Source: a virus. From it: a stretch of DNA of 64,000 nt. A program made the position numbers and the translations under genes. The stretch spans positions 1 through 64,000 of the IMG/VR virus record IMGVR_UViG_3300037634_005704. One strand, written 5' to 3'. Shown here in pieces: positions 5,650-39,661 of the stretch. Each line of letters starts with the position of its first letter. Positions within the stretch are counted from its first letter, which is position 1. The notes beneath the pieces were generated by a model, which searched no databases, was not told where the DNA came from, and saw only the letters and a program-made list of their open reading frames with translations.

Positions 5650-6756
5650 ATGCTTAAAGGATCCGTATTTCTCTATGAAAATCTCACTCCTTACGATCAA
5701 ATTACATTCGCAAAAGCATTTCAAATAGCCCTGCAGTTATGGGATAAAGATGAATGTTGGTGTATGAAAGAAAAAAATCACAACGTATTTAAAGGCTTCA
5801 ATACAAGTAAACCAAATCGCCTCCTCTATAAAAAGCGAGATGCCAGAATTCTTATGCTTGCTATGACGAATCGTTTCTATAGTGAAGAAAAACCTATTAT
5901 TGTTAGATCTGGAAAATGTAAATCACAACACTGTCTAAACCCATCCCATTACTATTGGGGGACAAGAAAAGACGTAGCCCAAGAGAATACAAATCGTAAA
6001 GATAATGGGATTAATAAGGAATTAATAACTGAACTAAGAACTAAAAATAAAGAAGGAATTAATAGTTTAAAGTTATCAAAAATCTATAAAATTCCTTATC
6101 ATATAGTTAGGCGAATCTGTAATAATGAAACTTATAACAGCATTGCACAAGAACTACAATCAGATAGTCTATGGGAGACAACATTAGCGGTATGTGAAAG
6201 TCTCACAACCACATATCCCTTAGAAGCAAAAAAATTCAATCTGACTTATCACGTGACAAACGAACTTGAATGCCCCTGGCATCGACAATCTGAATCTAAA
6301 CATAAAGGTAACTTCGGCTTAATGGGCGAATGCCTAGATTGTTTAGAAGAAATCAAAAATGGACGCTGTACAGTAGATGTTCGAAATTTCGATTTCCAAT
6401 GGTATTGGCAAGTCAAGCGCTTCTGGGATCAAGTTGATATAGGAGATTCAGATCTCTGCTGGAAATGGAGAGGCGCTACCAGGAAAAACAATACGGAATC
6501 AACTGCATATTTTCCATCTCCGTTTCACGCAGCAAAAACCCAGTCTGCTTCAAGGATTGCATTCTGGTTAAGCCGTGGCTATACAGGGAAATATAGAATT
6601 TTCAGTAAATCCTCTTGTGAATCATTCTGCTGCAACCCAACACACCTTACAATCAAAGAACTCAAAGATTGCCCCACTCCAAATGAAATTGAGAGAATCC
6701 GTCTTGCCCATGGAAATATCTTTCAGCACTACAAAGAGAAAGAAGATAGTTGCTAA
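5650..6756 (+). CDS. His-Me finger (HNH-type) homing-endonuclease-like protein with two nuclease-type modules (368 aa)
   Basis: Two C-x-NP-x-H motifs (SQHCLNPSHYYWGT and CCNPTHLTIKE) plus CWKWRG. HTH-like segment LSKIYKIPYHIVRRI between them. Confidence 0.65.
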   Translation: MLKGSVFLYENLTPYDQITFAKAFQIALQLWDKDECWCMKEKNHNVFKGFNTSKPNRLLYKKRDARILMLAMTNRFYSEEKPIIVRSGKCKSQHCLNPSHYYWGTRKDVAQENTNRKDNGINKELITELRTKNKEGINSLKLSKIYKIPYHIVRRICNNETYNSIAQELQSDSLWETTLAVCESLTTTYPLEAKKFNLTYHVTNELECPWHRQSESKHKGNFGLMGECLDCLEEIKNGRCTVDVRNFDFQWYWQVKRFWDQVDIGDSDLCWKWRGATRKNNTESTAYFPSPFHAAKTQSASRIAFWLSRGYTGKYRIFSKSSCESFCCNPTHLTIKELKDCPTPNEIERIRLAHGNIFQHYKEKEDSC

Positions 6757-7081
6757 AGAAAGTTCTATAGAGCCAAGCAATTATCATTTAGGCGATGATA
6801 GGCAATATGCGGCTCTTGTAGCTATAAATGACAAAGTAACTTTCTCAAACTGGTATGACACTAAAGAAGAGGCTGAAAGAGCAAAAGTATTTTTAGAAGC
6901 AGCATTAGATTATGGCTCTTATATAACTATGGAAGAAGAAGGTACATATCCTGAGCGCGCTACAATAATGAGAGAAAGATATGAAAAATCCGGTAGAGAT
7001 GATCCAAATCATCCTATGCATGGATTTTACACTGGATTAGCAACAGAACATGAGCAGATTTCTAACAACAATCCCAAATAA
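6710..7081 (+). CDS. hypothetical protein, weak AP2-like DNA-binding resemblance (123 aa from ATG 6710)
   Basis: Track ORF 6575..7081 trimmed to the ATG at 6710 because the upstream part overlaps the endonuclease gene. The segment QYAALVAINDKVTFSNWYDTKEEAERAKVFLEAAL is weakly AP2-like. Confidence 0.4.
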   Translation: MEISFSTTKRKKIVAKESSIEPSNYHLGDDRQYAALVAINDKVTFSNWYDTKEEAERAKVFLEAALDYGSYITMEEEGTYPERATIMRERYEKSGRDDPNHPMHGFYTGLATEHEQISNNNPK

Positions 7082-7724
7082 CTCAGGATTCTATAATTTT
7101 GGAACTATTGAAGCATATCCAACAGGAGGAACAGGGCCTACAGCATATGGACCAACTTCGTATTATGGCTCTGATCCTCTACCAGCAAACACTGGGGATA
7201 GTCTTAATAACCCAGTAGATTTAGGTACTTTCCCATCTATATTTCGATCAATTCCAATAAAGAATACACATGGTGGATTATCCAGAAAGCAGACAACTTT
7301 TTATAAATTAAAACTACCAGGAGCACGGGCAGTTCAATTTACTCAAGATTATTCACAATTTTCTTATGAAAAGAATACAAATAAAAATACTTTACTAGCT
7401 TTTTATCGAATAACTGAAGATAAACTGAGAGAAGAGCTACCTATAAATGATGAGGGCTATGTATATACAGAAAGTGCAATTGATTATTTAGATGAAAGTG
7501 TAATAAGCGGCGTTGAATCAGAATATCCGACAACAAACTTAGCTGCAGGAGACTATTTATTTCTAATTACAAATGATATTCGATATTTAGAGACAACTTA
7601 TTCAATAACTCTAAATATTAATCTTCTCGATTGGGGGAAAGTTATTGATGAAGTTGATGCTTCAATACTATTTGAATTTGTAACTGATGTAGTCACAGAT
7701 GCCCTTGACTTTGAAAACGTTTAA
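7050..7724 (+). CDS. hypothetical protein (224 aa)
   Basis: ORF track. Its stop overlaps the stop of the convergent gene in TTAA (7721-7724). Confidence 0.55.
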   Translation: MSRFLTTIPNNSGFYNFGTIEAYPTGGTGPTAYGPTSYYGSDPLPANTGDSLNNPVDLGTFPSIFRSIPIKNTHGGLSRKQTTFYKLKLPGARAVQFTQDYSQFSYEKNTNKNTLLAFYRITEDKLREELPINDEGYVYTESAIDYLDESVISGVESEYPTTNLAAGDYLFLITNDIRYLETTYSITLNINLLDWGKVIDEVDASILFEFVTDVVTDALDFENV

Positions 7725-8812
7725 GCGCACTCACGGAGCCCCTTAACAAAGAACGCAACTTCGGCTAATGCATCATTAACTTCAGTACTTTCTAATGGAG
7801 CAATATCAACTTTAAGACGTTCATCACATAAACCTAAGAAACCACCGCCGCCGCCGCTATCGTCAGCCAAAGGTGCTCTATCAGGATAGAAAACATCTGG
7901 CTTAGGATCTCTAGGTTCAACATAGATATTTCTATCTCTCCAGTCCTCATAGATAGGCTCCCAATCCATATCAGCCCAAGCGGGTTCTCTAAATTCTTCA
8001 GTTGGTTGGAATCCAGTAGCAATTTCTTCATCTCTCCGACTCTGCGCTAAGTCATAAGCTCTTTGAGCTCTTAAAGTTCTCTCAGAAGGCTCTCTGTCTT
8101 GTGCCATCTCAAAAGCTTCTTTCCCTGAATAACCTGCATTACGTAACTCTCGTTTATGACTTCTGGCATCAGTCCTATCTTCCTTTTGTGCATACGCTAA
8201 CTCTGTTCTATCCCGGTTTAAGCGTTGCTGTAGTGGAGTTACACCACGATCAAAATCCTTTTGCTCAAGATTTTGTCTAAGTTCATGATTCCGTCTCATC
8301 ACATCAGCCATTTGCTGATATGTTGCTTTTGGAGTTATCTCATGAACAATAGTCGGAGGAGTAGGTGCAGAAGGGACAAAAACAGGTGGTGGAGGACCAA
8401 CCTGTTCTTTATTTCCATTATGTAGAAGTACTCCATCACATACGTATGTATGTGCACCTTCGACTATTATTTCAACTGAATCGCCTGTCCCTAATTTCTC
8501 TGAATCAGTAAATTCTAATTCACCATCCAATTGAGAAACTTTATCTCCTTCCTCTAAATCAATTGCACTAAGCCAACTTTTCCTACTAGGAGAATAAAAA
8601 CGATCTTCTTCTGAACAAGTAAATTTCCTACCTGAGAAGTTAAGATTAACTAAAGGAGATTCAACAATTCGAACATAGCTAATCTCAGCCTCACCTCTTT
8701 TTAAAGTATGTTGATGAAGAGTATCTAATTTATCGCCTATTTTTAGATCTCTTATCGTTTTAGTAACGCCTCCTGCTAAGAGGACCTCCATATCAGGTAC
8801 GCGGACACCCAT
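7721..8812 (-). CDS. Hint (intein-like) domain protein with S74-like C-terminal tag (363 aa)
   Basis: Residues 5-132 read VPDMEVLLAGGVTKTIRDLKIGDKL ... VEIIVEGAHTYVCDGVLLHN, matching Hint blocks A and F/G. The C-terminal 35 aa CDERLKVDIAPLESTEVNDALAEVAFFVKGLRECA are shared with 34934..35542. Confidence 0.75.
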   Translation of the reverse strand: MGVRVPDMEVLLAGGVTKTIRDLKIGDKLDTLHQHTLKRGEAEISYVRIVESPLVNLNFSGRKFTCSEEDRFYSPSRKSWLSAIDLEEGDKVSQLDGELEFTDSEKLGTGDSVEIIVEGAHTYVCDGVLLHNGNKEQVGPPPPVFVPSAPTPPTIVHEITPKATYQQMADVMRRNHELRQNLEQKDFDRGVTPLQQRLNRDRTELAYAQKEDRTDARSHKRELRNAGYSGKEAFEMAQDREPSERTLRAQRAYDLAQSRRDEEIATGFQPTEEFREPAWADMDWEPIYEDWRDRNIYVEPRDPKPDVFYPDRAPLADDSGGGGGFLGLCDERLKVDIAPLESTEVNDALAEVAFFVKGLRECA

Positions 8813-30825: not shown

Positions 30826-31311
30826 CTAAGATTCTTCTTGTAAAATTTTAGTCCAAACACCCATAGAAGCTTCAGATAATGGTCCTTCAATCGGATCATC
30901 CCTAAATATTGTTAACATCTCACGTAAAGCTCTATCTGCGCCAGCAAGAATCAACCCTTGTTTGTCAAGTAATACTTTCTCATCAGTCAACTGTTTAATT
31001 GTACCTCTTAATTCTTTCTGCAACATCGCAATCCTGGCAGTGCCCATATCTTGCTTCACCATACCCATTTGAATACCGTCTCTTAAGTTAGCAATATCTT
31101 GCTGCATTAGGTCAATTTCGGACTCTAAGACCTTTTGAAAATTACGTTTTTTAAATTTTTTCAACGCCCATTGATCACAATTCACAATGCTGCCAGTGAA
31201 CCCGAGAAATCGAGCATACAAGTACATTTGAATCGGACTACGAGCTTGCTTACAAAAAGCGAGAAAAGCCTCCCGATCTTTAACGGTAAGACTTTTAAGC
31301 CATTCAATCAT
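30826..31311 (-). CDS. terminase small subunit candidate (161 aa)
   Basis: Lies directly upstream of terL, and its start overlaps the stop of the preceding 558-aa repeat-protein gene by 4 nt. N-terminal HTH-like region plus a central coiled coil. Assignment is mainly positional. Confidence 0.45.
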   Translation of the reverse strand: MIEWLKSLTVKDREAFLAFCKQARSPIQMYLYARFLGFTGSIVNCDQWALKKFKKRNFQKVLESEIDLMQQDIANLRDGIQMGMVKQDMGTARIAMLQKELRGTIKQLTDEKVLLDKQGLILAGADRALREMLTIFRDDPIEGPLSEASMGVWTKILQEES

Positions 31312-32984
31312 ACACGAGCAGCGGAACGTGCTTGACTGTAATCCCTATCCTCCTTATAGCGACGGAATTGTTCTCTTTGCTCATCTGTACGACGAGTTTC
31401 CTTTCCAGTTTCCCTAGTCAATGCTCTAGCTTCTTGTCCTCTAGTACCTTCTAAACCCCTTTCTCCCGCATATCTTTCAGCTTGAGTTTGACGAGCCTGC
31501 GTTCCAGTTGTTTCCGTTAATCCCCTTTCTCCCGCATATCTTTCAGCTTGAGTTTGACGAGCCTGCGTTCCAGATTCGCCAACTACTGATCTTTCTCCTA
31601 CATATCTCTCAGCCTGGGTTTGTCTCGTTTGCTCACCAGTTGTCTCAGTTAATCCCCTTTCTCCTGTATATCTCTCAGCTTGGGTTTGGCGAGTCTGTGC
31701 TCCAGTTTCCCCAACTACAGATCGTTCTCCTGCATACCTCTCGGCTTGAGTTTGACGAGTCTCTTCGCCACCAGTTCTTAATCCTTCTTTCTGAGTTAAC
31801 CGTGTTTGTTCTCCAGTTGTCTCAGCTAATCCTCTTTCCCCTGCATATCTCTCTGCTTGAGTCTCTCGTGTTTGTGCTCCACCAACTCTTAATCCTTGCT
31901 CCTGAGTTAACCGTGTTTGCTCTCCAGTTGCTGCAGCTAATCCTCTTTCCCCTGCATATCTCTCTGCTTGAGTCTCTCGTGTTTGTGATCCGCCAAGTGT
32001 TAATCCTTCTGCTTGAGTTAATCGTGCTTGCTCTCCAGTTGCTGCAGTTAATCCCCTTTCTCCCATAAAGCGCTCAGCCTGAGTCACCCTACCTTCAGCA
32101 GCTTGAGTTTGCGCAGTTAATCGTGTTTGCTCACCAGTTGCTGCAGTTAAACCCCTTTCTCCCATAAAGCGCTCAGCTTGTGTCAGTCTCCCTTCAGCAG
32201 CTTGAGTTTGTGCAGTTAACCGGGTTTGTGCTCCAGTTGTCTCAGCTAGTCCCCTTTCTCCCAAAAACCTCTCAGCCTGAGTTTGCCTACCTTCCATCTG
32301 ACGAACTGATTCAGATAAACGTTCCTGTTCACCAGTTGCACCAATATCTCCTCTCTGTCCCATAAAGCGCTCAGATTGAGTCTGCCTTTCCTGTGCAGCT
32401 TGAGCGGCAACAGTTGTCCGCTCTTCAGCAGCACGAGTTGCTTCAAATGTACGTTCCCCCAGGAACCTTTCAGCCTGAGTCTCCCGAGATTGATACCCTT
32501 CTTCAGCACGAGTTAGACGATCCTGTTGTCCAGTTGCACCAATCGATGCCCTCTCTCCCATGAACCTTTCAGATTGCAGTTGCCTATCTTGTGCAGCTGC
32601 CTGCTCCTGAGTTAATCGTGTCTGTTGTCCAGTTGTCGCAGCAGTTGTTCGAGTTTGGAATCCTTCTTCCGCTAAAGTAGCTCGAGCTTCCGTTCCTTTT
32701 GTTCCTTCTAAATCCTGATCCGCTAGACTAACTGTTTGATATTCATCTTTCCGATTAACACTTAACGCGTTTTCAAGATCTTTTTGCTGCTCTGTTGCAA
32801 ATTGACTCATATCTTTATCGATATCAGCCGCAACCTGCATGTTATATCGAGCTTGATCAGCCGCAAGCTGATTCATCGCAACTTGATTTGTTAACTCAGG
32901 AGATACGTTGTATCGAACACCACCAATTTCATATTCATCATCACCCTCTCTTACAATCGTCGGTGCCCTTGGTTCGTCAGCCAT
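31308..32984 (-). CDS. tandem-repeat protein, ~15 x TQAER[FY]xGER units (558 aa)
   Basis: ORF track. Repeats of 22 or 33 aa such as RQTQAERYAGERGLTETTGEQT. Confidence 0.7.
   Translation of the reverse strand: MADEPRAPTIVREGDDEYEIGGVRYNVSPELTNQVAMNQLAADQARYNMQVAADIDKDMSQFATEQQKDLENALSVNRKDEYQTVSLADQDLEGTKGTEARATLAEEGFQTRTTAATTGQQTRLTQEQAAAQDRQLQSERFMGERASIGATGQQDRLTRAEEGYQSRETQAERFLGERTFEATRAAEERTTVAAQAAQERQTQSERFMGQRGDIGATGEQERLSESVRQMEGRQTQAERFLGERGLAETTGAQTRLTAQTQAAEGRLTQAERFMGERGLTAATGEQTRLTAQTQAAEGRVTQAERFMGERGLTAATGEQARLTQAEGLTLGGSQTRETQAERYAGERGLAAATGEQTRLTQEQGLRVGGAQTRETQAERYAGERGLAETTGEQTRLTQKEGLRTGGEETRQTQAERYAGERSVVGETGAQTRQTQAERYTGERGLTETTGEQTRQTQAERYVGERSVVGESGTQARQTQAERYAGERGLTETTGTQARQTQAERYAGERGLEGTRGQEARALTRETGKETRRTDEQREQFRRYKEDRDYSQARSAARV
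31390..32600 (-). repeat. 66/99-nt tandem coding repeats
   Basis: For example, an exact 52-nt duplicate at 31456-31507 and 31522-31573 (offset 66 nt). Many further diverged copies up to ~32600. Confidence 0.85.
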
Positions 32985-33875: not shown

Positions 33876-34682
33876 TTAGAAGTACCTAAACATATTGCGC
33901 TGAGACATGGCATTACCCATAGCTATACCAGCATTTTGTGCAATATTAAGCCCAGACTGTTGAGAATTGAGACTCATCTGCTTAGCCATATCAATATTAG
34001 CTTTGAGCTGTTCTGCAGCAGCTTGACGTTCTAATTCAGCTTTCGCAACTCTTTCTGTTTGACCATAAAGAGCATTACCTAAAGTATTAATAACTGATGC
34101 GTCAGCCTGGGCGCCTAGCACTCGACCTAGACGTTGTGCACTCCCTTGTCCACCTGGAGCTAACTGATACCATATACCACCGTCAGGTCCAACCATTCGA
34201 GCAACCGTGCCAGCAGGTAATCCACCTAATGGATCTTGATATGGACCAACCCCTTGTTGATTTAATAAATGTGCACCTGCACCTACAACATTCTGACCCG
34301 TATTAGCAGCTATATTACTAGCAGCAGAAGCAACCTCTGGTGTAACATCTCCTCCTCCCTGTCGGGATAATAAACCTATACCAGCTAAAGGTACTCCAAC
34401 TTGAGCTAGATTTTGAGCTAGATGAGGATTCATACCAAGACGTGATAAAGCAGCTCCTGATTTAGCCATCGCCCAGTTTTGTCCTGGAAGAGGTGTTGCA
34501 CCTACAAGACCACCAATGAGACCTCCTTTTAATCTATTTCCCAACCCACCATCAGATGTCATTGCTCCTAAACCGAAACCAAGTCCTCCTCGGACTTTTT
34601 CATTACCTAGAAGTCGTGCTCCTTTCTGTAACCAAGGTAGTGATTTTACGGTCCCTACTTGTGCAAGTCTAAGTAAGCTCAT
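33876..34682 (-). CDS. Gly-rich virion-module ORFan (268 aa)
   Basis: ORF track; GGLG/GLIGGLVG-type Gly repeats followed by a coiled-coil-like C-terminus. Confidence 0.6.
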   Translation of the reverse strand: MSLLRLAQVGTVKSLPWLQKGARLLGNEKVRGGLGFGLGAMTSDGGLGNRLKGGLIGGLVGATPLPGQNWAMAKSGAALSRLGMNPHLAQNLAQVGVPLAGIGLLSRQGGGDVTPEVASAASNIAANTGQNVVGAGAHLLNQQGVGPYQDPLGGLPAGTVARMVGPDGGIWYQLAPGGQGSAQRLGRVLGAQADASVINTLGNALYGQTERVAKAELERQAAAEQLKANIDMAKQMSLNSQQSGLNIAQNAGIAMGNAMSQRNMFRYF

Positions 34683-34725: not shown

Positions 34726-34947
34726 CTAACTCTTCGCCAAAATCTCTTCTCTAGCTAGAGATACATAATTCCTCAAAACATTTAAATCAAGCATCAAAAC
34801 TCCATCTACTTCATGTACAGCTTCAGGAATAATTTGTTGTACTTGTTGAGCAGAAAAACCAGCTCTTAATGATTGACTAGGATCCAATCCGGAACTATAC
34901 CGAAATTGAATAGGTTCAAGTTGTTTTAACTTTTCAAGCGCACTCAC
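34726..34947 (-). CDS. free-standing peptidase-S74 (intramolecular chaperone) core-like protein lacking the SDxRxK site (73 aa)
   Basis: SALEKLKQLEPIQFRY...RAGFSAQQVQQIIPEAVHEVDGVLMLDLNVL fits aLekllkLrPvtFrY...GfiAQEVeevlPeaV...vdy..L. The GTG start overlaps the upstream stop. Confidence 0.6.
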   Translation of the reverse strand: MSALEKLKQLEPIQFRYSSGLDPSQSLRAGFSAQQVQQIIPEAVHEVDGVLMLDLNVLRNYVSLAREEILAKS

Positions 34948-35542
34948 GAATCTCTTTTACGAAGAATGCTATGTCAGCTAATGCATCATTAACTTCAGTA
35001 TTTTCTAATGGTGCAATATCAGTCTTAAGACGAATATCACACATAGCTCCAATTGCAGCAGGCGCAACGGCCTTTACAAAATCACCAAACCATTCTCCAA
35101 AGGATACTGAAGGCTTCCAAGATGCTGTCGGACCAAGACTAAATGGTTTTTCCTCTGGCGTATATAGTCCACTAGTAGACGTCATGGGATCAGAATCAGA
35201 AAATGGAGTAAATCTCTGCGAAGCTCCACCGCCCTGTCCACCGAATAATCCGCTACCTCCTGGAATGAGATCCGGTCCACCGCCGCCACCGCCGCCGCCG
35301 CCAGAACTGCCGCCACCGCCGCCGCTTTGTTGTCTACGCCCTTGTGCAGCGTTATAAGCTGAGGACCAGGATGAATTCCCGGCGCCAATCGCGGCCCAGG
35401 GGGCGCTGGCTTGCGCAAGATCAGCCGCAGTCGGTGAGATGGCAAAAGGATTTCCACCACTGAACCCGCCAAAACCTCCTGGAGGGCTACTACCGAAACC
35501 TCCAGAAGCTGTTCCAATATTAACAGCTGTTCCAAAATCCAT
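34934..35542 (-). CDS. Gly-rich protein ending in the S74-like cleavage-site tag (202 aa)
   Basis: Poly-Gly tract (SGGGGGSSGGGGGGGGGP). C-terminal CDIRLKTDIAPLENTEVNDALADIAFFVKEIRECA is 28/35 identical to the C-terminus of 7721..8812. Confidence 0.65.
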   Translation of the reverse strand: MDFGTAVNIGTASGGFGSSPPGGFGGFSGGNPFAISPTAADLAQASAPWAAIGAGNSSWSSAYNAAQGRRQQSGGGGGSSGGGGGGGGGPDLIPGGSGLFGGQGGGASQRFTPFSDSDPMTSTSGLYTPEEKPFSLGPTASWKPSVSFGEWFGDFVKAVAPAAIGAMCDIRLKTDIAPLENTEVNDALADIAFFVKEIRECA

Positions 35543-35594: not shown

Positions 35595-36494
35595 TTAGAA
35601 ATATTGAGGCCGGTTGTTATACAATTTATCAACCATTGAATTAACATCATAAGCACCACCCCATGTGCCCTGCACTCCTGGTGTTCGAGCTTCTTGTCTA
35701 GCATCTTGTAATGCCATCTTATGTTTAAACTTTTGCTCTTCTAACTCATGTCGATATTGAGCAGCAACACGGGCAGATTCAACACTCGGATTGTAGTTAT
35801 CATCATATCCACCACGTACAGGAGTAACAGGAGCTGCATAAACAGAACGAGGTTTACCTCCTTGAGCAAAACTATGCAAGAAAGCACCTGCTGCTAAAGG
35901 CGTTCCAATACCAATCGTTGTTCCAACAGCTCGAGCAGTATTTTCTGGATTGTCATAAAGCATCTGAGCCCACTCCATACCCGCTGGTGCGACAGGATCG
36001 TGCCCTAAACTTCCACGACCTGGCTCAGATGTATAAGGTGTTGACGTTCCTTTACTAACTCTAGCTGCATATTTTGGATCCCTTCCACTACCAGGTACTT
36101 CCCTAATAGTTGTTTCAAGAGATTCTTCTCCAGGATAGGGTGCTAGTGGATTTAAGAATGGATCTACTGGACGTGCATTCGCTAATTGTCGTCCACTTTT
36201 GCTATTCATTAAATAGCCACTATTTGCTTGTAGCCCTCTAGCATTGACCCCAGCTTCAATATCCGTTAGATGATCATAAACTGCACGAGCCGGTGCCTCA
36301 GCCACATTTGACCAATATCCTTGCATCACATCTCCTAACCACTTCCTACCTCTATTAAGTGCCTCACCACCAGTCGTAATTACATCAGGAGGAAGACTAG
36401 TTACAGCACTCATAACATTTTGTGGAGTAGGCTGGTGCCAAGCTTTCCCTATCTCTCTCCCAGCTCTAATTAGTTCTTCATTAACTAGTGGCAT
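35595..36494 (-). CDS. virion-module ORFan (299 aa)
   Basis: ORF track; its start overlaps the upstream stop by 1 nt. Confidence 0.6.
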   Translation of the reverse strand: MPLVNEELIRAGREIGKAWHQPTPQNVMSAVTSLPPDVITTGGEALNRGRKWLGDVMQGYWSNVAEAPARAVYDHLTDIEAGVNARGLQANSGYLMNSKSGRQLANARPVDPFLNPLAPYPGEESLETTIREVPGSGRDPKYAARVSKGTSTPYTSEPGRGSLGHDPVAPAGMEWAQMLYDNPENTARAVGTTIGIGTPLAAGAFLHSFAQGGKPRSVYAAPVTPVRGGYDDNYNPSVESARVAAQYRHELEEQKFKHKMALQDARQEARTPGVQGTWGGAYDVNSMVDKLYNNRPQYF

Positions 36495-37041: not shown

Positions 37042-37224
37042 CTATACCTCCCACCAAAGAGGAGTTTCTTCCGCTGCTGTTGAAACACGTTCAGCATAAG
37101 CAGAAACAGGCAAAGATTCATCTCTTAGCCCATCTATACCACCAATTGGCATCATAAATTCAGTATGGTCACCTAGAACTACTTTATCGCCAGGGAGCTT
37201 TGGTTCCGCAGAGTTATACATCAT
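37042..37224 (-). CDS. small hypothetical protein (60 aa from ATG 37224)
   Basis: Track ORF 37042..37332 trimmed to the tandem ATGs at 37224/37221, which overlap the stop of the 815-aa gene (ATGATGTATAA). Confidence 0.4.
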   Translation of the reverse strand: MMYNSAEPKLPGDKVVLGDHTEFMMPIGGIDGLRDESLPVSAYAERVSTAAEETPLWWEV

Positions 37225-39661
37225 CCCGATTTGCGATACGGCCACCAAGTCTTTTAGCTTCTTCTTTAGCTTCAAACGCTGCAATTTCCTCTGGGGTAAG
37301 CTGCTCAGTAGCACCTTGAACATATCTACCAAGTATTTGTAGTGGATTCATAGGTTCAGCATCATCAGGTGATTGATACTGTATCGCACCAGAACCACTA
37401 CCCGCGTAGCCAGTGCTCCCACCACCTGCTCCTCTCTTTCCAGTTTCCCAATTAATTCCTGTTGTTCGTCTATCAACCTTTGCTGCTCTATCATCCTGGA
37501 AAAATTCAGAGTTACGATCTCTTAGTCCCGCACGGAATTCTGCTTTCTCCCTAACAGAAGGTCTCTTTCCACCAGCCCAAGTTCTGACATTGACTGGCTC
37601 CCGATAAGCACCTGTCGTTCCAATATCAGTCCGTATCCAATCATCATCAGGTGTCAATGAACCTGGCTGATTCTCCATAGCAGCTAAGACCACCTGATCT
37701 TTAGCTCTTTGAATAAGACGTGAAGGAGCATTATCCTGCTCAAGAGGACCAATATCAGGATGATCATTAAGCCGTCTTCCAGGAACTACAACCCCTGTTT
37801 CCCTAGTCGTTGGTAAAACAGATTCTGAAATTGCTCTTACTTTTGCATCGATATTAAACTGTTGATCTGCTGATGTTTGTAAAGCAGCTAAATTACGCTG
37901 AATACCATCTAAAGCATTATCTAACCCAGGGGATATTACATTACGATTGAATTCCCTACCAGCAGGTACCAACACATTCGTATGGTAACCAGTTACAGCA
38001 GTACCTAATCTTCTACCACCAGGAACTAAAACATTTTCATGGAACTGTCGGCCCCCTGGAACTAAAACATTTCCATGGAATCCAGCAGCAGCTCTACCAG
38101 CTGGGACAAGAACCCGATTATGGAATGGAGCAACAGCTTTACCTGCTTTTATTCCAACTTTAGCTAAATCTTTCGCTGCACCTCCTACAAGTAATCCAGC
38201 ACCTAAACCTATTCCTTCTGCAGCTGTAACTCCACCAGCATTCACAAGATCTGCAACAAGTGGATGTGAACTCAGAAAACTAGAGCCTGCCTGAGCGATT
38301 GTTGGTATAACTTGACCAGTATAAGGAATATTCCAACCGCCAACACTTCCTATCGCATCTCTAACTTGACCTAATGGGCCAGTTACAGCACTAACTCCAG
38401 GAAGATTAAAGATGCCTTGAGTAGCCCCCGGATTAAATCCACTCCCAACAGCTCTTCCACCTTGGGGACCTAATCCTAGACCTCTACCTGCAATCATGAG
38501 TCCAAGATCACGAGCAGCTGCTTTCTCTTTTTGAGCACCAAAAGGCTCTTGATTTATTCTTCGAATAAGAGTTCCTGTATCCTGCCGCGCTCTATCTCCA
38601 GCTCTGGCTAAAGCTCTACCAAAAGCCCCTTTAGGTTGTGCGGAAACAGTTCCTTCAACTCTTTGTACCGCTGGATCATCTGCAGGAACAACGGTAGGCT
38701 GTGTAACCTCGTCTACAAAATCATCGACTCTACCCACTACATCTTTTCTGCCAGTAAGAGCTTTCTGCCCAGCTTGAGGAGGCACGCCACTTACGTAGTC
38801 ATTATAAGTTTGATTAGAACCAGTACCAACTCTCTCATCCTCCCATGGATCGTCAAGAATCTGAGGTGGATTCTTAGACTGGGGTGGAGGAGATGGATTC
38901 TTAGACTGGGGTGGAGGAGATGATGGTGGTGGAGATGATGGTGGTGGAGATGACTGTCGTCTCTCATAAAAATCGTCTGTACCAATAGCTCGTTGAGTTG
39001 AATCGTCAGCAATCCTGTTCGACTGACGACTGTAATAACCTTGCTTTGGTAAATCTTCATGCGATCTCTCTTCCAAAGGTTGTCCTTCGTCATAATCCAT
39101 AATCCAATGCTCGTTTCGAGCAAGCCAGTTATCAACATCATTTCTAATTGGACTTTGATCAACTATTTGAACACTTCCATCAGGATTTGAAGGTAATGCG
39201 TCCCCTATTACCTGAGTAACCCCTTCTTTAGGAATAAAAGGACTTCTTTCAGTTCCAGTTCTAGTTTTAGCAATAAAAGGAGCTCTGTCAGCGACTTCAT
39301 TAGCTATTGCACCCACCCCAGATGCTACCTCCTCTACCTCCTCAGGATAGAAAGGTGCCCTTTTAATAGCACCAGCTACATTCTCTACTGCCTGTGCTGC
39401 TTGACCAACACCTTTTTTATTAAAACCACCCGCTAAAGCGTTAGCAGCAACTAATGCACCCCCAACAGTAGCCGCTTTACTTAGAAAATCTGCTCCTTGC
39501 TGTATAAAAGTTGGTTCTGACTGCTGATAACCTCTATTTTGGACAAAATTATAGACCTCAGGGGTCATTTGCATCCGTTCTTGCGGATTTCTAGGGATTG
39601 GACGACCTGTTGTACGCGAATATAACTCAAAATCAGCAGGAGAGGCTAACACTTTACTCAA
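37214..39661 (-). CDS. large internal-virion-like ORFan with Pro/Ser tandem repeats and 5 x HxNVLVPxGR units (815 aa)
   Basis: ORF track. The start is uncertain (TTG 39661, GTG 39652, or ATG at codon 30). First gene of the minus-strand module. Confidence 0.65.
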   Translation of the reverse strand: MSKVLASPADFELYSRTTGRPIPRNPQERMQMTPEVYNFVQNRGYQQSEPTFIQQGADFLSKAATVGGALVAANALAGGFNKKGVGQAAQAVENVAGAIKRAPFYPEEVEEVASGVGAIANEVADRAPFIAKTRTGTERSPFIPKEGVTQVIGDALPSNPDGSVQIVDQSPIRNDVDNWLARNEHWIMDYDEGQPLEERSHEDLPKQGYYSRQSNRIADDSTQRAIGTDDFYERRQSSPPPSSPPPSSPPPQSKNPSPPPQSKNPPQILDDPWEDERVGTGSNQTYNDYVSGVPPQAGQKALTGRKDVVGRVDDFVDEVTQPTVVPADDPAVQRVEGTVSAQPKGAFGRALARAGDRARQDTGTLIRRINQEPFGAQKEKAAARDLGLMIAGRGLGLGPQGGRAVGSGFNPGATQGIFNLPGVSAVTGPLGQVRDAIGSVGGWNIPYTGQVIPTIAQAGSSFLSSHPLVADLVNAGGVTAAEGIGLGAGLLVGGAAKDLAKVGIKAGKAVAPFHNRVLVPAGRAAAGFHGNVLVPGGRQFHENVLVPGGRRLGTAVTGYHTNVLVPAGREFNRNVISPGLDNALDGIQRNLAALQTSADQQFNIDAKVRAISESVLPTTRETGVVVPGRRLNDHPDIGPLEQDNAPSRLIQRAKDQVVLAAMENQPGSLTPDDDWIRTDIGTTGAYREPVNVRTWAGGKRPSVREKAEFRAGLRDRNSEFFQDDRAAKVDRRTTGINWETGKRGAGGGSTGYAGSGSGAIQYQSPDDAEPMNPLQILGRYVQGATEQLTPEEIAAFEAKEEAKRLGGRIANRDDV

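What the first reader, a model, noticed from the sequence alone, without database searches (positions are those of the whole stretch)
34726..35542. Portable 35-aa C-terminal tag equal to the cleavage-site part of a peptidase-S74 chaperone domain, with the rest as a free-standing 73-aa ORF
The Gly-rich 202-aa protein and the unrelated Hint-domain protein (7721..8812) end in the same 35 residues. These are CDIRLKTDIAPLENTEVNDALADIAFFVKEIRECA and CDERLKVDIAPLESTEVNDALAEVAFFVKGLRECA (28/35 identical). The DNA at 34937-35041 and 7724-7828 is also alignable. The tag begins like the SDxRLKxNIxxL autocleavage motif of tail-fibre/endosialidase intramolecular chaperone domains (Pfam Peptidase_S74). Two things differ: Cys replaces the Ser nucleophile, and the tag stops after about one third of the domain. 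The next ORF (34726..34947) has a GTG start overlapping the stop, in the +1 frame. It reads SALEKLKQLEPIQFRY...RAGFSAQQVQQIIPEAVHEVDGVLMLDLNVL, which is the remainder of the same domain. The ALxxL helix is present in both pieces. The conserved ...RECA-stop in two separate genes argues against a sequencing frameshift. Hypothesis: a split, trans-complementing chaperone/autoprotease serves at least two tagged virion proteins.
Basis: partly seen in the sequence, partly recalled or inferred. Interest (0 to 1): 0.75.

Follow-up and report, generated by a model that had tools for sequence, protein, structure and literature searches.

The report
Split self-cleaving tag system in cyanophages
A self-cleaving domain that normally sits in one piece at the end of phage tail fibres is here divided into a 35-residue tag on several unrelated proteins and a separate 73-residue partner protein, an arrangement conserved across hundreds of uncultured marine cyanophages.

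Summary
Two unrelated window proteins end in the same 35-aa tag: a 202-aa Gly-rich protein and a 363-aa PT-HINT protein. A 73-aa ORF overlaps the first gene's stop by 14 nt.

- **Domain assignment.** The 73-aa ORF is a Peptidase_S74/ICA core. It passes the Pfam threshold, and its AlphaFold model matches the MyRF ICA structure. Tag residues 1-15 match the S74 cleavage motif. Cys replaces Ser, and Cys1 and Lys6 are near-invariant.
- **Tag-specific part.** Residues 16-35 are a conserved segment with no detectable S74 homology, so the split is not clean.
- **Not an error or fixed-site frameshift.** About 50 viral contigs keep two ORFs. The start codon is conserved, all three stop codons occur, and there are three junction geometries.
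- **Spread.** An exhaustive profile search finds 234 tag-bearing protein clusters, and the tag is always C-terminal. Cargoes are diverse: Gly-rich, RGG-basic, a T7 gp14-type internal virion protein homologue, PT-HINT and DUF4214.
- **Natural variants.** Tagless variants end at, or one residue past, the predicted cleavage site.

Best reading: a naturally split ICA autoprotease. The tag is the "cable" carrying the catalytic dyad. The small protein is the "cutter", acting in trans on several cargoes. Cleavage itself is untested. This is a new variant of a known kind.

The parts
34934..35542 (-). Gene for the 202-aa Gly-rich cargo protein (cargo part 25% Gly, 14% Ser, 13% Ala) carrying the C-terminal 35-aa tag. 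Predicted cleavage lies between Met167 and Cys168.
   Evidence: ORF list. Composition. AlphaFold2 with a 40-sequence alignment finds no confident fold: mean pLDDT 48.9. Independent gene callers also aa.
34937..35041 (-). Coding sequence of the 35-aa tag. Residues 1-15 (CDIRLKTDIAPLENT) are the S74 cleavage motif with Cys1, Arg4 and Lys6. Residues 16-35 are a tag-specific segment with a heptad-like hydrophobic pattern.
   Evidence: Pfam positions 1-22. hhalign to fused S74 domains: 95%, columns 1-15. Invariant C1 D2 K6 L12 D19 L21 A25. pN/pS 0.32 for codons 1-14 and 0.35 for codons 15-30.
34726..34947 (-). Free-standing 73-aa ORF: the S74/ICA core (the 'donut' or cutter) without the nucleophile motif. 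It has a GTG start.
   Evidence: PF13884 at 35.5 bits against a gathering score of 22. AlphaFold2 pLDDT 82.6. Foldseek top hit is the MyRF ICA domain 7dc3, probability 1.0, TM 0.67. 326 clusters at 90% identity; the 120 best listed are all 73-76 aa.
34934..34947 (-). 14-nt overlap between the small ORF's start and the cargo gene's stop (GTGAGTGCGCTTGA), suggesting translational coupling of the two genes.
   Evidence: Sequence. The same 14-nt overlap occurs in almost all relatives, with TGA, TAA or TAG stops. Synonymous divergence is depressed in the overlap: pS 0.43 against 0.73-0.78 elsewhere in the tag.
34952..34957 (-). Shine-Dalgarno-like AAAGAG, 4 nt upstream of the GTG start of the small ORF.
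   Evidence: Sequence. 27 of 29 GTG-start relatives have a purine-rich SD-like element at this place. Of the 11 ATG-start relatives, 10 lack one.
7721..8812 (-). Gene for the 363-aa protein with an N-terminal PT-HINT-like domain, a Pro-rich linker, a charged region, a Gly5 stretch and a second copy of the tag. Predicted cleavage lies between Leu328 and Cys329.
   Evidence: ORF. Hint similarity: PDB 6y75 at E 4.6e-4, inteins weaker. Homologues carry precomputed PF07591. Homologues at 40-70% identity lack the tag.
7724..7828 (-). Second copy of the tag-coding sequence. It keeps the GTGAGTGCGCTT of the primary junction, but a TAA stop follows and there is no S74 ORF downstream.
   Evidence: 82% nucleotide identity to 34937..35041, with unrelated flanks.

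Best explanation
This is a naturally split version of the intramolecular chaperone/autocleavage (ICA, Peptidase_S74) domain.

**The two pieces**
- The catalytic 'cable' sits at the start of a 35-residue C-terminal tag. It carries the Cys1 nucleophile, Arg4 and the Lys6 general base.
- The rest of the fold is a separate 73-residue protein. This is the beta 'donut' that grips the cable in solved ICA trimers, plus the helices around it. It is made from an overlapping, probably translationally coupled ORF.

**Proposed steps** (inferred by homology, not shown)
1. The small protein oligomerises.
2. Each copy threads the tag of a cargo protein through its hole. The tag-specific segment (residues 16-35) supplies the affinity or oligomerisation that a covalent link and the long C-terminal coiled coil supply in one-piece domains.
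3. The reconstituted site cleaves the bond just before Cys. Cys1 is the presumed nucleophile and Lys6 the presumed general base, as in the Ser-Lys dyad of one-piece S74 domains. The cargo is released with a native C-terminus.

**Consequence of the split**
One small gene can serve any protein that acquires the tag. In this window those are the Gly-rich 202-aa protein and a PT-HINT protein. Elsewhere they include a DUF4214 protein, RGG-rich basic proteins and a homologue of the T7 gp14 internal virion protein.

**Likely biological role** (lower confidence)
Controlled assembly or loading, followed by tag removal, of low-complexity and partly membrane-active internal or ejection proteins of the virion. 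It probably does not fold a beta-helical fibre.
For: **Shown here**
- The small ORF passes the Pfam S74 threshold and has the ICA fold.
- Tag residues 1-15 are homologous to the S74 cleavage motif.
- Cys1 is present in 141 of 144 cluster representatives and Lys6 in 142 of 144.
- The tag always lies at the extreme C-terminus: 234 clusters at 50% identity, on proteins of 41-723 aa.
- The two-ORF structure is conserved.
  - Start codons are 29 GTG and 11 ATG. The GTG starts nearly always have an SD-like element.
  - Stops are TGA, TAA or TAG.
  - There are three junction geometries: a 14-nt overlap, an ATGA overlap in the other frame (L037), and a 4-nt spacer before a 113-aa ORF (L107).
  - The junction RNA shows no unusual structure (z 0.35).
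- Tag and small ORF are adjacent in every locus that holds both. The exceptions are the secondary tags on the PT-HINT protein (window, L080/L100) and on the DUF4214 protein (L106). Both secondary tags carry relics of the primary junction.
- PT-HINT homologues at 40-70% identity lack the tag, so it was acquired recently.
- Two natural variants have lost the tag precisely and keep the small ORF. Their cargo ends ...GGLF* (L036) and ...GGLFG* (L033), at or one residue past the predicted cleavage site.

**Inferred from the MyRF ICA structure (PMC8326128)**
- Trimerisation of the ICA domain is required for cleavage.
- The cleavage 'cable' of one subunit threads through the donut of the neighbouring subunit, so the reaction is already intermolecular within the trimer.
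- The dyad S587/K592 and R590 map to tag C1/K6/R4.
- The hole and holder residues Y615, Y617, Q639, F657, I663, F666 and K671 map to small-ORF F15, Y17, Q34, M52, L58, Y61 and R66. Of these, F15, Y17, Q34 and Y61 are invariant and L58 nearly invariant in the family (alignment, conservation).

**Cargo identity**
- The L043 tagged protein sits after tail tubular proteins A and B. It is homologous to S-CBP1_0034 (BLASTP 6e-18) and to the DSL-LC07 'internal virion protein gp14'.
Against: - No biochemical or proteomic evidence for cleavage or for a complex exists.
- The small ORF ends about 8 residues into the equivalent of the MyRF alpha-4 helix. It therefore lacks most of the triple coiled coil that drives trimerisation in MyRF. 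Its oligomeric state is unknown.
- The tag alone is below the Pfam threshold.
- AlphaFold2 on the monomer gives the tag no confident structure (pLDDT about 50).
- The small ORF persists where the adjacent tag has been deleted (L033, L036). It may therefore have a role independent of that tag. Whether other tags exist in those genomes is unknown, because both contigs are short.
- 1:1 translational coupling with the main cargo does not obviously leave spare small protein for secondary cargoes, unless the small protein recycles.
Confidence: 0.6

Rival explanations
1. The tag is a non-cleaving docking or oligomerisation handle. It is a degenerate relic of S74 that binds the small protein (or another virion component) to recruit or bundle cargoes. 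No proteolysis occurs, and Cys and Lys are conserved for binding or for a covalent link such as a disulfide.
For: - The tag is portable, always C-terminal, and linked to the small ORF.
- The tag-specific segment 16-35 is as strongly conserved as the motif itself.
- The small ORF lacks the long coiled coil of one-piece domains.
Against: - Exactly the residues that are catalytic in S74 are the near-invariant ones: position 1, Arg4 and Lys6.
- The residues that hold the cable in the MyRF structure are invariant in the small ORF.
- Natural tagless variants end at, or one residue past, the predicted scissile bond. This is what one expects if the mature protein lacks the tag.
Confidence: 0.15
2. The tag is removed, but not by the small protein. 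Either the tag is self-sufficient, or it is a recognition site for another protease such as a prohead protease. The 73-aa protein then has an unrelated role or is an evolutionary leftover.
For: - Secondary tags have no adjacent small ORF.
- The small ORF is kept in the tagless loci L033 and L036.
Against: - In MyRF, cleavage needs the trimerised ICA fold, and the dyad alone is not enough. A 35-residue tag cannot form the donut.
- The small ORF is highly conserved (mean column identity 85% among the 39 close relatives aligned; 326 clusters), and precisely at the cable-holding residues.
- The tight physical linkage and the stop-start overlap argue for joint function.
Confidence: 0.12
3. Programmed ribosomal frameshifting or bypassing joins the two ORFs. 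Some ribosomes then make a one-piece S74 domain in cis.
For: - The small ORF lies in the +1 frame and overlaps the stop.
- A fused read would give a full-length Pfam match (50.7 bits with the insertion).
- In L107 the junction is A-rich.
Against: - A start codon is conserved at the same place in all 40 distinct junctions, and the GTG starts come with SD-like elements.
- The stop codon varies among TGA, TAA and TAG.
- The frame relation differs between lineages: +1 with a 14-nt overlap, the ATGA overlap in L037, and a spacer in L107.
- In ATG-start relatives a stop codon lies immediately before the ATG in the small-ORF frame.
- The junction has no unusual RNA structure (z 0.35).
- Secondary tags work without any downstream S74 ORF, and tagless loci keep the small ORF.
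Confidence: 0.05
4. A sequencing or assembly indel has split a normal one-piece S74 domain.
For: None beyond the frame change itself.
Against: - The same split is seen in about 50 independent viral contigs and in hundreds of protein clusters from different samples and assemblers.
- The tag region is under purifying selection in its own frame, right up to its stop.
- The second tag in the same window also ends ...RECA-stop.
Confidence: 0.01

Closest known systems
Peptidase_S74 / intramolecular chaperone autocleavage (ICA, CIMCD) domain of phage tailspikes and fibres (K1F endosialidase, T5 L-shaped fibre pb1) and of eukaryotic MyRF
   Same: - Same fold for the 73-aa piece (Pfam, and Foldseek to 7dc3).
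- Same N-terminal motif, x-D-x-R-x-K-x-[DN]-I-x-P-L, with the conserved Lys.
- Same C-terminal position on the protein it processes.
- The cable-in-donut geometry of solved trimers already places the cleavage segment of one subunit in the neighbour's beta-donut (PMC8326128).
   Different: - The domain is divided between two polypeptides.
- The nucleophile is Cys, not Ser.
- A 20-residue tag-specific segment is inserted after the motif.
- The long C-terminal triple coiled coil is missing.
- No predicted fold, and so no beta-helix or fibre, lies upstream (AlphaFold pLDDT 49).
- Cargoes are low-complexity or basic proteins, among them a gp14-type internal virion protein homologue, rather than receptor-binding fibres.
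- One partner gene serves several cargoes.
Naturally split inteins (for example cyanobacterial DnaE)
   Same: An autoprocessing domain is encoded as two fragments on separate polypeptides. These must associate to rebuild the active fold. The nucleophile is a Cys that attacks the preceding peptide bond. This is an analogy of mechanism only.
   Different: - The fold is unrelated (Hint versus ICA).
- Inteins ligate their flanks, whereas here only cleavage is expected.
- Intein fragments sit inside one split host protein, whereas here one fragment is a portable tag on several proteins.
Phage T4 capsid-targeting sequence (CTS) of internal proteins
   Same: A short portable peptide is shared by several otherwise unrelated internal virion proteins and is removed after assembly. 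This resemblance rests on my own knowledge of T4 and is functional only.
   Different: - The T4 CTS is N-terminal, about 10 residues long, and is cut by the prohead protease gp21.
- Here the tag is C-terminal, 35 residues long, and carries its own catalytic residues.
- Capsid targeting is not shown here.
T4 fibritin foldon and separately encoded tail-fibre chaperones (gp57A, gp38, Tfa)
   Same: Small C-terminal or separately encoded elements that nucleate the oligomerisation of phage structural proteins.
   Different: - The foldon is not cleaved.
- The separately encoded chaperones are not homologous to S74 and do not rebuild a protease site with their client.

Membership tests
Peptidase_S74 / ICA domain (PF13884) | Sequence match to the family profile above the curated threshold | tested here: met
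   - The 73-aa ORF scores 35.5 bits against a gathering score of 22 and covers profile positions 16-58.
- The tag alone is below threshold, at 16.5 bits.
- Tag residues 1-14 joined to the ORF cover positions 1-58 at 57.5 bits.
- hhalign of the tag profile against fused S74 N-termini gives 95.4% probability and E 1.8e-8.
Peptidase_S74 / ICA domain (PF13884) | ICA three-dimensional fold | tested here: met
   The AlphaFold2 model of the 73-aa ORF has pLDDT 82.6. The best Foldseek hits in the PDB are the three chains of the MyRF ICA domain 7dc3, with probability 1.0 and TM 0.67-0.68. The next hits are at chance level.
Peptidase_S74 / ICA domain (PF13884) | Ser-Lys catalytic dyad (S-D-x-R-x-K) | tested here: not met
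   Lys is present and near-invariant (142/144), but position 1 is Cys in 141/144, never Ser. Cys is a chemically plausible substitute. One-piece Cys-type S74 domains also exist: L083, L085 and L096.
Peptidase_S74 / ICA domain (PF13884) | One polypeptide: the domain is fused in cis to the C-terminus of the protein it processes (intramolecular) | tested here: not met
   Two ORFs with a conserved start codon, variable stop codons and three junction geometries. Secondary tags have no downstream S74 ORF.
Peptidase_S74 / ICA domain (PF13884) | [quoted passage not shown] | tested here: inconclusive
   The alignment to 7dc3 ends at about MyRF residue 678, whereas alpha-4 spans 670-705. The model has an 18-residue C-terminal helix. 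Oligomeric state was not testable.
Peptidase_S74 / ICA domain (PF13884) | Trimeric beta-helix or fibre immediately upstream of the cleavage site | tested here: not met
   - The upstream sequence is Gly/Ser/Ala-rich low complexity.
- AlphaFold2 with 40 sequences finds no fold: pLDDT 48.9 and no strands.
- Other cargoes are RGG-basic or coiled-coil rich.
- A monomer model cannot exclude a structure that forms only in the trimer.
Peptidase_S74 / ICA domain (PF13884) | Autocleavage of the bond N-terminal to the nucleophile | not testable with these tools
   Only indirect evidence. Natural tagless variants L036 (...GGLF*) and L033 (...GGLFG*) end at, or one residue past, that position.
Hint / PT-HINT (PF07591), for the second tagged protein | Match to a Hint-family profile or structure | tested here: inconclusive
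   - The window protein itself gives no Pfam hit at E<=10.
- Its N-terminal 140 residues match the Hint-fold chain 6y75 at E 4.6e-4 and inteins at E 0.05-0.8.
- Homologues at 40-70% identity carry precomputed PF07591.
- The domain ends in the intein-like motif VLLHN|G.

The most novel reading that the evidence does not exclude
The tag and the 73-aa protein form a trans-activated, traceless, self-cleaving loading signal. Any protein that acquires the 35-residue tag is recruited to the assembling virion through the small protein. Recruited proteins would include ejection proteins, DNA-binding basic proteins and a PT-HINT effector. Each is then released inside the particle by Cys-Lys autocleavage. 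This would be a C-terminal, protease-independent counterpart of the T4 capsid-targeting sequence. It could also serve as a ready-made tool for inducible, scarless removal of C-terminal tags.
Probability: 0.25. Interest if true: 0.85.

Novelty: new variant of a known kind. Interest (0 to 1): 0.68.

Why it matters
**A family that has not been seen split.**
- ICA/S74 domains are the textbook example of an intramolecular, single-turnover chaperone-protease.
- A natural version divided into a portable nucleophile-bearing tag and a separate cutter would show that the reaction can be intermolecular.
- It would also show that Cys can replace Ser, and that the module serves clients that are not beta-helical fibres.
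- I found no description of a split S74 module in four literature searches.

**An abundant and little-known phage group.**
- The system is common in uncultured marine cyanophages: 234 tag clusters at 50% identity and 326 small-ORF clusters at 90% identity.
- These include an S-EIV1-like lineage in which almost no structural protein has been identified.
- The tag marks a set of candidate internal or ejection proteins in these phages.

**A possible tool.**
- A 35-residue C-terminal tag that is cut off exactly at its first residue when a 73-residue protein is supplied would leave a native C-terminus on the cargo.
- That would be useful for protein engineering.

Tried and rejected
**Searches that found nothing close**
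- DNA search of the region against 50,697 phage records found nothing.
- tblastn of the small ORF found only distant fused tail-fibre S74 domains in isolates, so no cultured phage carries this family.
- The only cultured relative by portal protein is Synechococcus phage S-EIV1, at 52% identity. It has neither tag nor small ORF, only a normal Ser-type fused S74 on a 601-aa protein.
- A scan of bacterial genomes found only distant S74 relatives and no prophage copy.
- NCBIfam and PHROGs gave nothing for the cargo proteins.

- The search for related loci with the 202-aa protein failed because the sequence is low complexity. The tag alone was too short for two tools.
- The word-indexed tag profile search returned only 32 short or truncated gene calls. 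The exhaustive profile search was needed.
- AlphaFold2 of the 202-aa protein gave no fold and no confident tag structure.

**Ideas tested and dropped**
- That tag residues 16-35 duplicate the small ORF's first helix and strand: rejected by hhalign.
- Frameshift, bypass or sequencing error: rejected on comparative grounds.

**Literature**
- Searches found no description of a split S74.
- The K1F papers that tested the chaperone domain were not available.
Full report
**1. The observation**

Both ORFs and the tag are exactly as described. The 202-aa ORF 34934..35542(-) and the 363-aa ORF 7721..8812(-) end in 35 residues that are 28/35 identical.

The DNA of the two tags is 82% identical. Differences are concentrated at third codon positions, and the flanks on both sides are at random level. 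A motif scan of all six frames finds no third copy in the window.

The 73-aa ORF 34726..34947(-) starts with GTG, 14 nt before the TGA of the 202-aa gene, in the +1 frame. An SD-like AAAGAG lies 4 nt upstream of that GTG.

**2. S74 similarity**

Pfam PF13884 results:
- The 73-aa ORF matches positions 16-58 of 58, at 35.5 bits against a gathering score of 22.
- The tag alone matches positions 1-22 but stays below threshold (16.5 bits).
- Tag residues 1-14 joined to the ORF match the whole profile at 57.5 bits.

An AlphaFold2 model of the small ORF has pLDDT 82.6. Its only significant PDB neighbours are the three chains of the MyRF ICA domain 7dc3 (probability 1.0, TM 0.67). A sequence search of the PDB also finds 7dc3, plus a tail-fibre entry, 8jov.

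The tag is S74-like only in part:
- Profile-profile comparison of the tag family with fused S74 N-termini gives 95% probability, but only over columns 1-15.
- A tag HMM aligns to one-piece Cys-type S74 domains over positions 1-14/15 only.
- Tag versus small ORF shows no similarity.

So the tag consists of 14-15 S74 residues followed by a 20-residue tag-specific segment. The S74 homology of the small ORF begins where that of the tag stops.

**3. Not an artefact and not a fixed-site frameshift**

A search of IMG/VR with the small ORF returned 59 loci. About 50 of them, down to 51% identity, show the same arrangement. The other nine are ordinary fused Ser-type tail fibres.

Across 40 distinct junctions:
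- The start codon is always GTG (29) or ATG (11) at the same place.
- 27 of the 29 GTG starts have an SD-like element. 10 of the 11 ATG starts do not.
- The stop of the upstream gene is TGA, TAA or TAG.

Junction geometry varies between lineages:
- L037 has an ATGA overlap in the other frame relation.
- L107 has a 4-nt spacer followed by a 113-aa S74 ORF.

Further points:
- The junction RNA is no more structured than shuffled sequence (z 0.35).
- The tag is under purifying selection in its own frame, in the S74 part (pN/pS 0.32) and in the specific part (0.35). Synonymous divergence drops in the 14-nt overlap, as expected for dual coding.
- Independent gene callers in ENA, NCBI and JGI records also-aa (or 203-aa) and 73-aa genes.

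**4. How widespread it is, and what carries the tag**

The small ORF family has 326 clusters at 90% identity; the 120 best listed are all 73-76 aa and free-standing.

An exhaustive profile search of 1.84 billion representative proteins finds 234 tag-bearing clusters. The tag always ends at or within a few residues of the C-terminus, on proteins of 41-723 aa. Cys1 is present in 141/144 and Lys6 in 142/144 of the representatives examined. The few outliers look like truncated gene calls.

Cargoes are strikingly diverse:
- Gly-rich proteins with a hydrophobic, small-residue-rich stretch just before the Cys.
- Very basic RGG/RK-rich proteins of 330-720 aa.
- Coiled-coil-rich proteins of about 400 aa.
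- The PT-HINT protein.
- A DUF4214 protein.

In L043, a T7-like cyanopodovirus contig, the gene order is major capsid protein, tail tubular A, tail tubular B, a 172-aa ORF, the tagged 419-aa protein, the small ORF, then an 885-aa ORF. The tagged protein is homologous to S-CBP1_0034 (BLASTP 6e-18) and to the DSL-LC07 'internal virion protein gp14'. The S-CBP1 homologue has no tag.

In the window and its S-EIV1-like relatives, the pair sits in a conserved block of low-complexity proteins just upstream of the terminase and portal genes.

**5. Portability**

- Homologues of the PT-HINT protein at 40-70% identity (PF07591) end in unrelated sequences. Only relatives at 87-100% identity carry the tag.
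- The PT-HINT copy retains the GTGAGTGCGCTT of the primary junction.
- The DUF4214 copy in L106 retains TTGAGAAATTAAAACAA, the first codons of the small ORF.

Secondary tags were therefore copied from the primary locus, with sharp borders.

Conversely, L033 and L036 have lost the tag by clean deletions. Their cargo ends ...GGLFG* and ...GGLF*, where relatives read ...GGLF|CD..., and the small ORF is intact.

Tag and small ORF are adjacent in every locus that holds both.

**6. Mechanism**

The MyRF ICA structure paper (PMC8326128) reports the following:
- S587 and K592 are indispensable for cleavage.
- Cleavage requires trimerisation of the ICA domain.
- The 'cable' bearing the scissile bond, from the neighbouring subunit, threads through a beta 'donut'. 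The donut is lined by Y615, Y617, F621, I637, F657, I663 and F666.
- R590, I637, Q639, F666, L667 and V669 hold the cable in place; K671 lies close to the reaction centre.

I derived the chain-to-MyRF numbering offset (+538) by matching the residues named in the paper to the phmmer alignment. On that numbering:
- The dyad and R590 fall in the tag, at C1, K6 and R4.
- Y615, Y617, Q639, F657, I663, F666 and K671 fall in the small ORF, at F15, Y17, Q34, M52, L58, Y61 and R66.
- F15, Y17, Q34 and Y61 are invariant in the family, L58 is nearly so, and G30-Q37 and N60 are also invariant.

The active site is thus divided between the two gene products. The interaction that must be rebuilt is one that is already intermolecular in the one-piece trimer. 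This is inference by homology; it has not been demonstrated.

The small ORF ends about 8 residues into the equivalent of alpha-4. It therefore lacks most of the coiled coil that drives trimerisation in MyRF. The tag-specific segment has hydrophobic positions L21, V/I24, V28 and L/I31 in 3-4 spacing. I propose, without evidence, that this segment compensates for the missing coiled coil.

**7. Biological role**

- AlphaFold finds no fold in the 202-aa cargo.
- The residues just before the Cys are hydrophobic and Gly-rich, or poly-basic.
- The one cargo with an identifiable homologue is a gp14-type internal virion protein.

I therefore favour controlled assembly or loading, followed by tag removal, of internal or ejection proteins over classical beta-helix chaperoning. 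This step is the least secure.

**8. Comparison and novelty**

The module works like an S74/ICA autoprotease. Against the family's defining features:
- Two fail: a single polypeptide, and a Ser nucleophile.
- A third, an upstream fibre, is not found.
- A fourth, the long coiled coil, is doubtful.

The nearest conceptual parallel is the naturally split intein. I found no description of a split S74 in the literature available to me. The paper that defines this uncultured cyanophage lineage reports that most of its structural proteins are unrecognisable (bioRxiv 10.1101/325100).

**Verdict:** a real and conserved new variant of a known kind, with a well-supported anatomy and an untested but specific mechanism.

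Noticed in passing
window 7721..8812 (-), mainly residues 1-135 (about 8408..8812): The second tagged protein begins directly with a PT-HINT-like domain that lacks the usual N-terminal Cys (MGVRVPDMEVLL...) but keeps the intein-like C-terminal VLLHN|G. It may therefore have a second self-cleavage site, by Asn cyclisation, that would free the Pro-rich and charged middle part. It is the only minus-strand gene among plus-strand genes, it converges on ORF 7050..7724 with a 4-nt overlap, and it lies next to an HNH endonuclease gene (5650..6756).
   Followed up: partly
window 31308..32984 (-): The 558-aa ORF between the tagged-protein block and the terminase genes is built almost entirely of tandem repeats of 66-132 nt. 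At the protein level these are units of roughly 22-44 aa, such as ...TQAERYAGERGL..TTGEQTR.... It has no meaningful family match (one marginal PHROG hit, E 5e-4). It may be a scaffold-like or internal protein.
   Followed up: partly
window 33876..34682 (-) and 35595..36494 (-): The two proteins flanking the tag/small-ORF pair both end in similar aromatic C-termini (...NMFRYF* and ...NNRPQYF*). This may be a second kind of shared C-terminal signal in the same gene block.
   Followed up: no
window 37214..39661 (-): The 815-aa protein contains a Pro/Ser-rich repeat (PPPSSPPPSSPPPQSKNPSPPPQSKNPP; tandem repeats at 38863..38953). It also has five copies of a short motif, H-x-N-V-L-V-P-[AG]-G-R. It has no family match.
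   Followed up: no
L101 768..2573 (Synechococcus phage S-EIV1, AHV82127) and L099 19081..21621: The closest cultured relative has an ordinary one-piece Ser-type S74 domain (…TTSDYRLKENITPLDGAIARLNQLPVHRFNF…) on a 601-aa protein annotated as hypothetical. Its annotated large terminase gene is 2,541 nt, against 1,524 nt in this window, which could mean an insertion such as an intein.
   Followed up: partly
L083 8073..10205, L096 4068..6179, L085 5607..8021: One-piece S74 domains with Cys instead of Ser as the first residue (CDERIKDDITPLES…, CDYRIKEDIAPLAS…) occur at the C-termini of 700-800-aa viral proteins. The Cys variant is therefore not restricted to the split form.
   Followed up: partly
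L037 9865..11007 (-): A psbA (photosystem II D1) gene lies 4 kb from a tagged 608-aa basic protein and its small ORF. This supports a cyanophage origin for the subfamily with the 33-34-aa tag.
   Followed up: no
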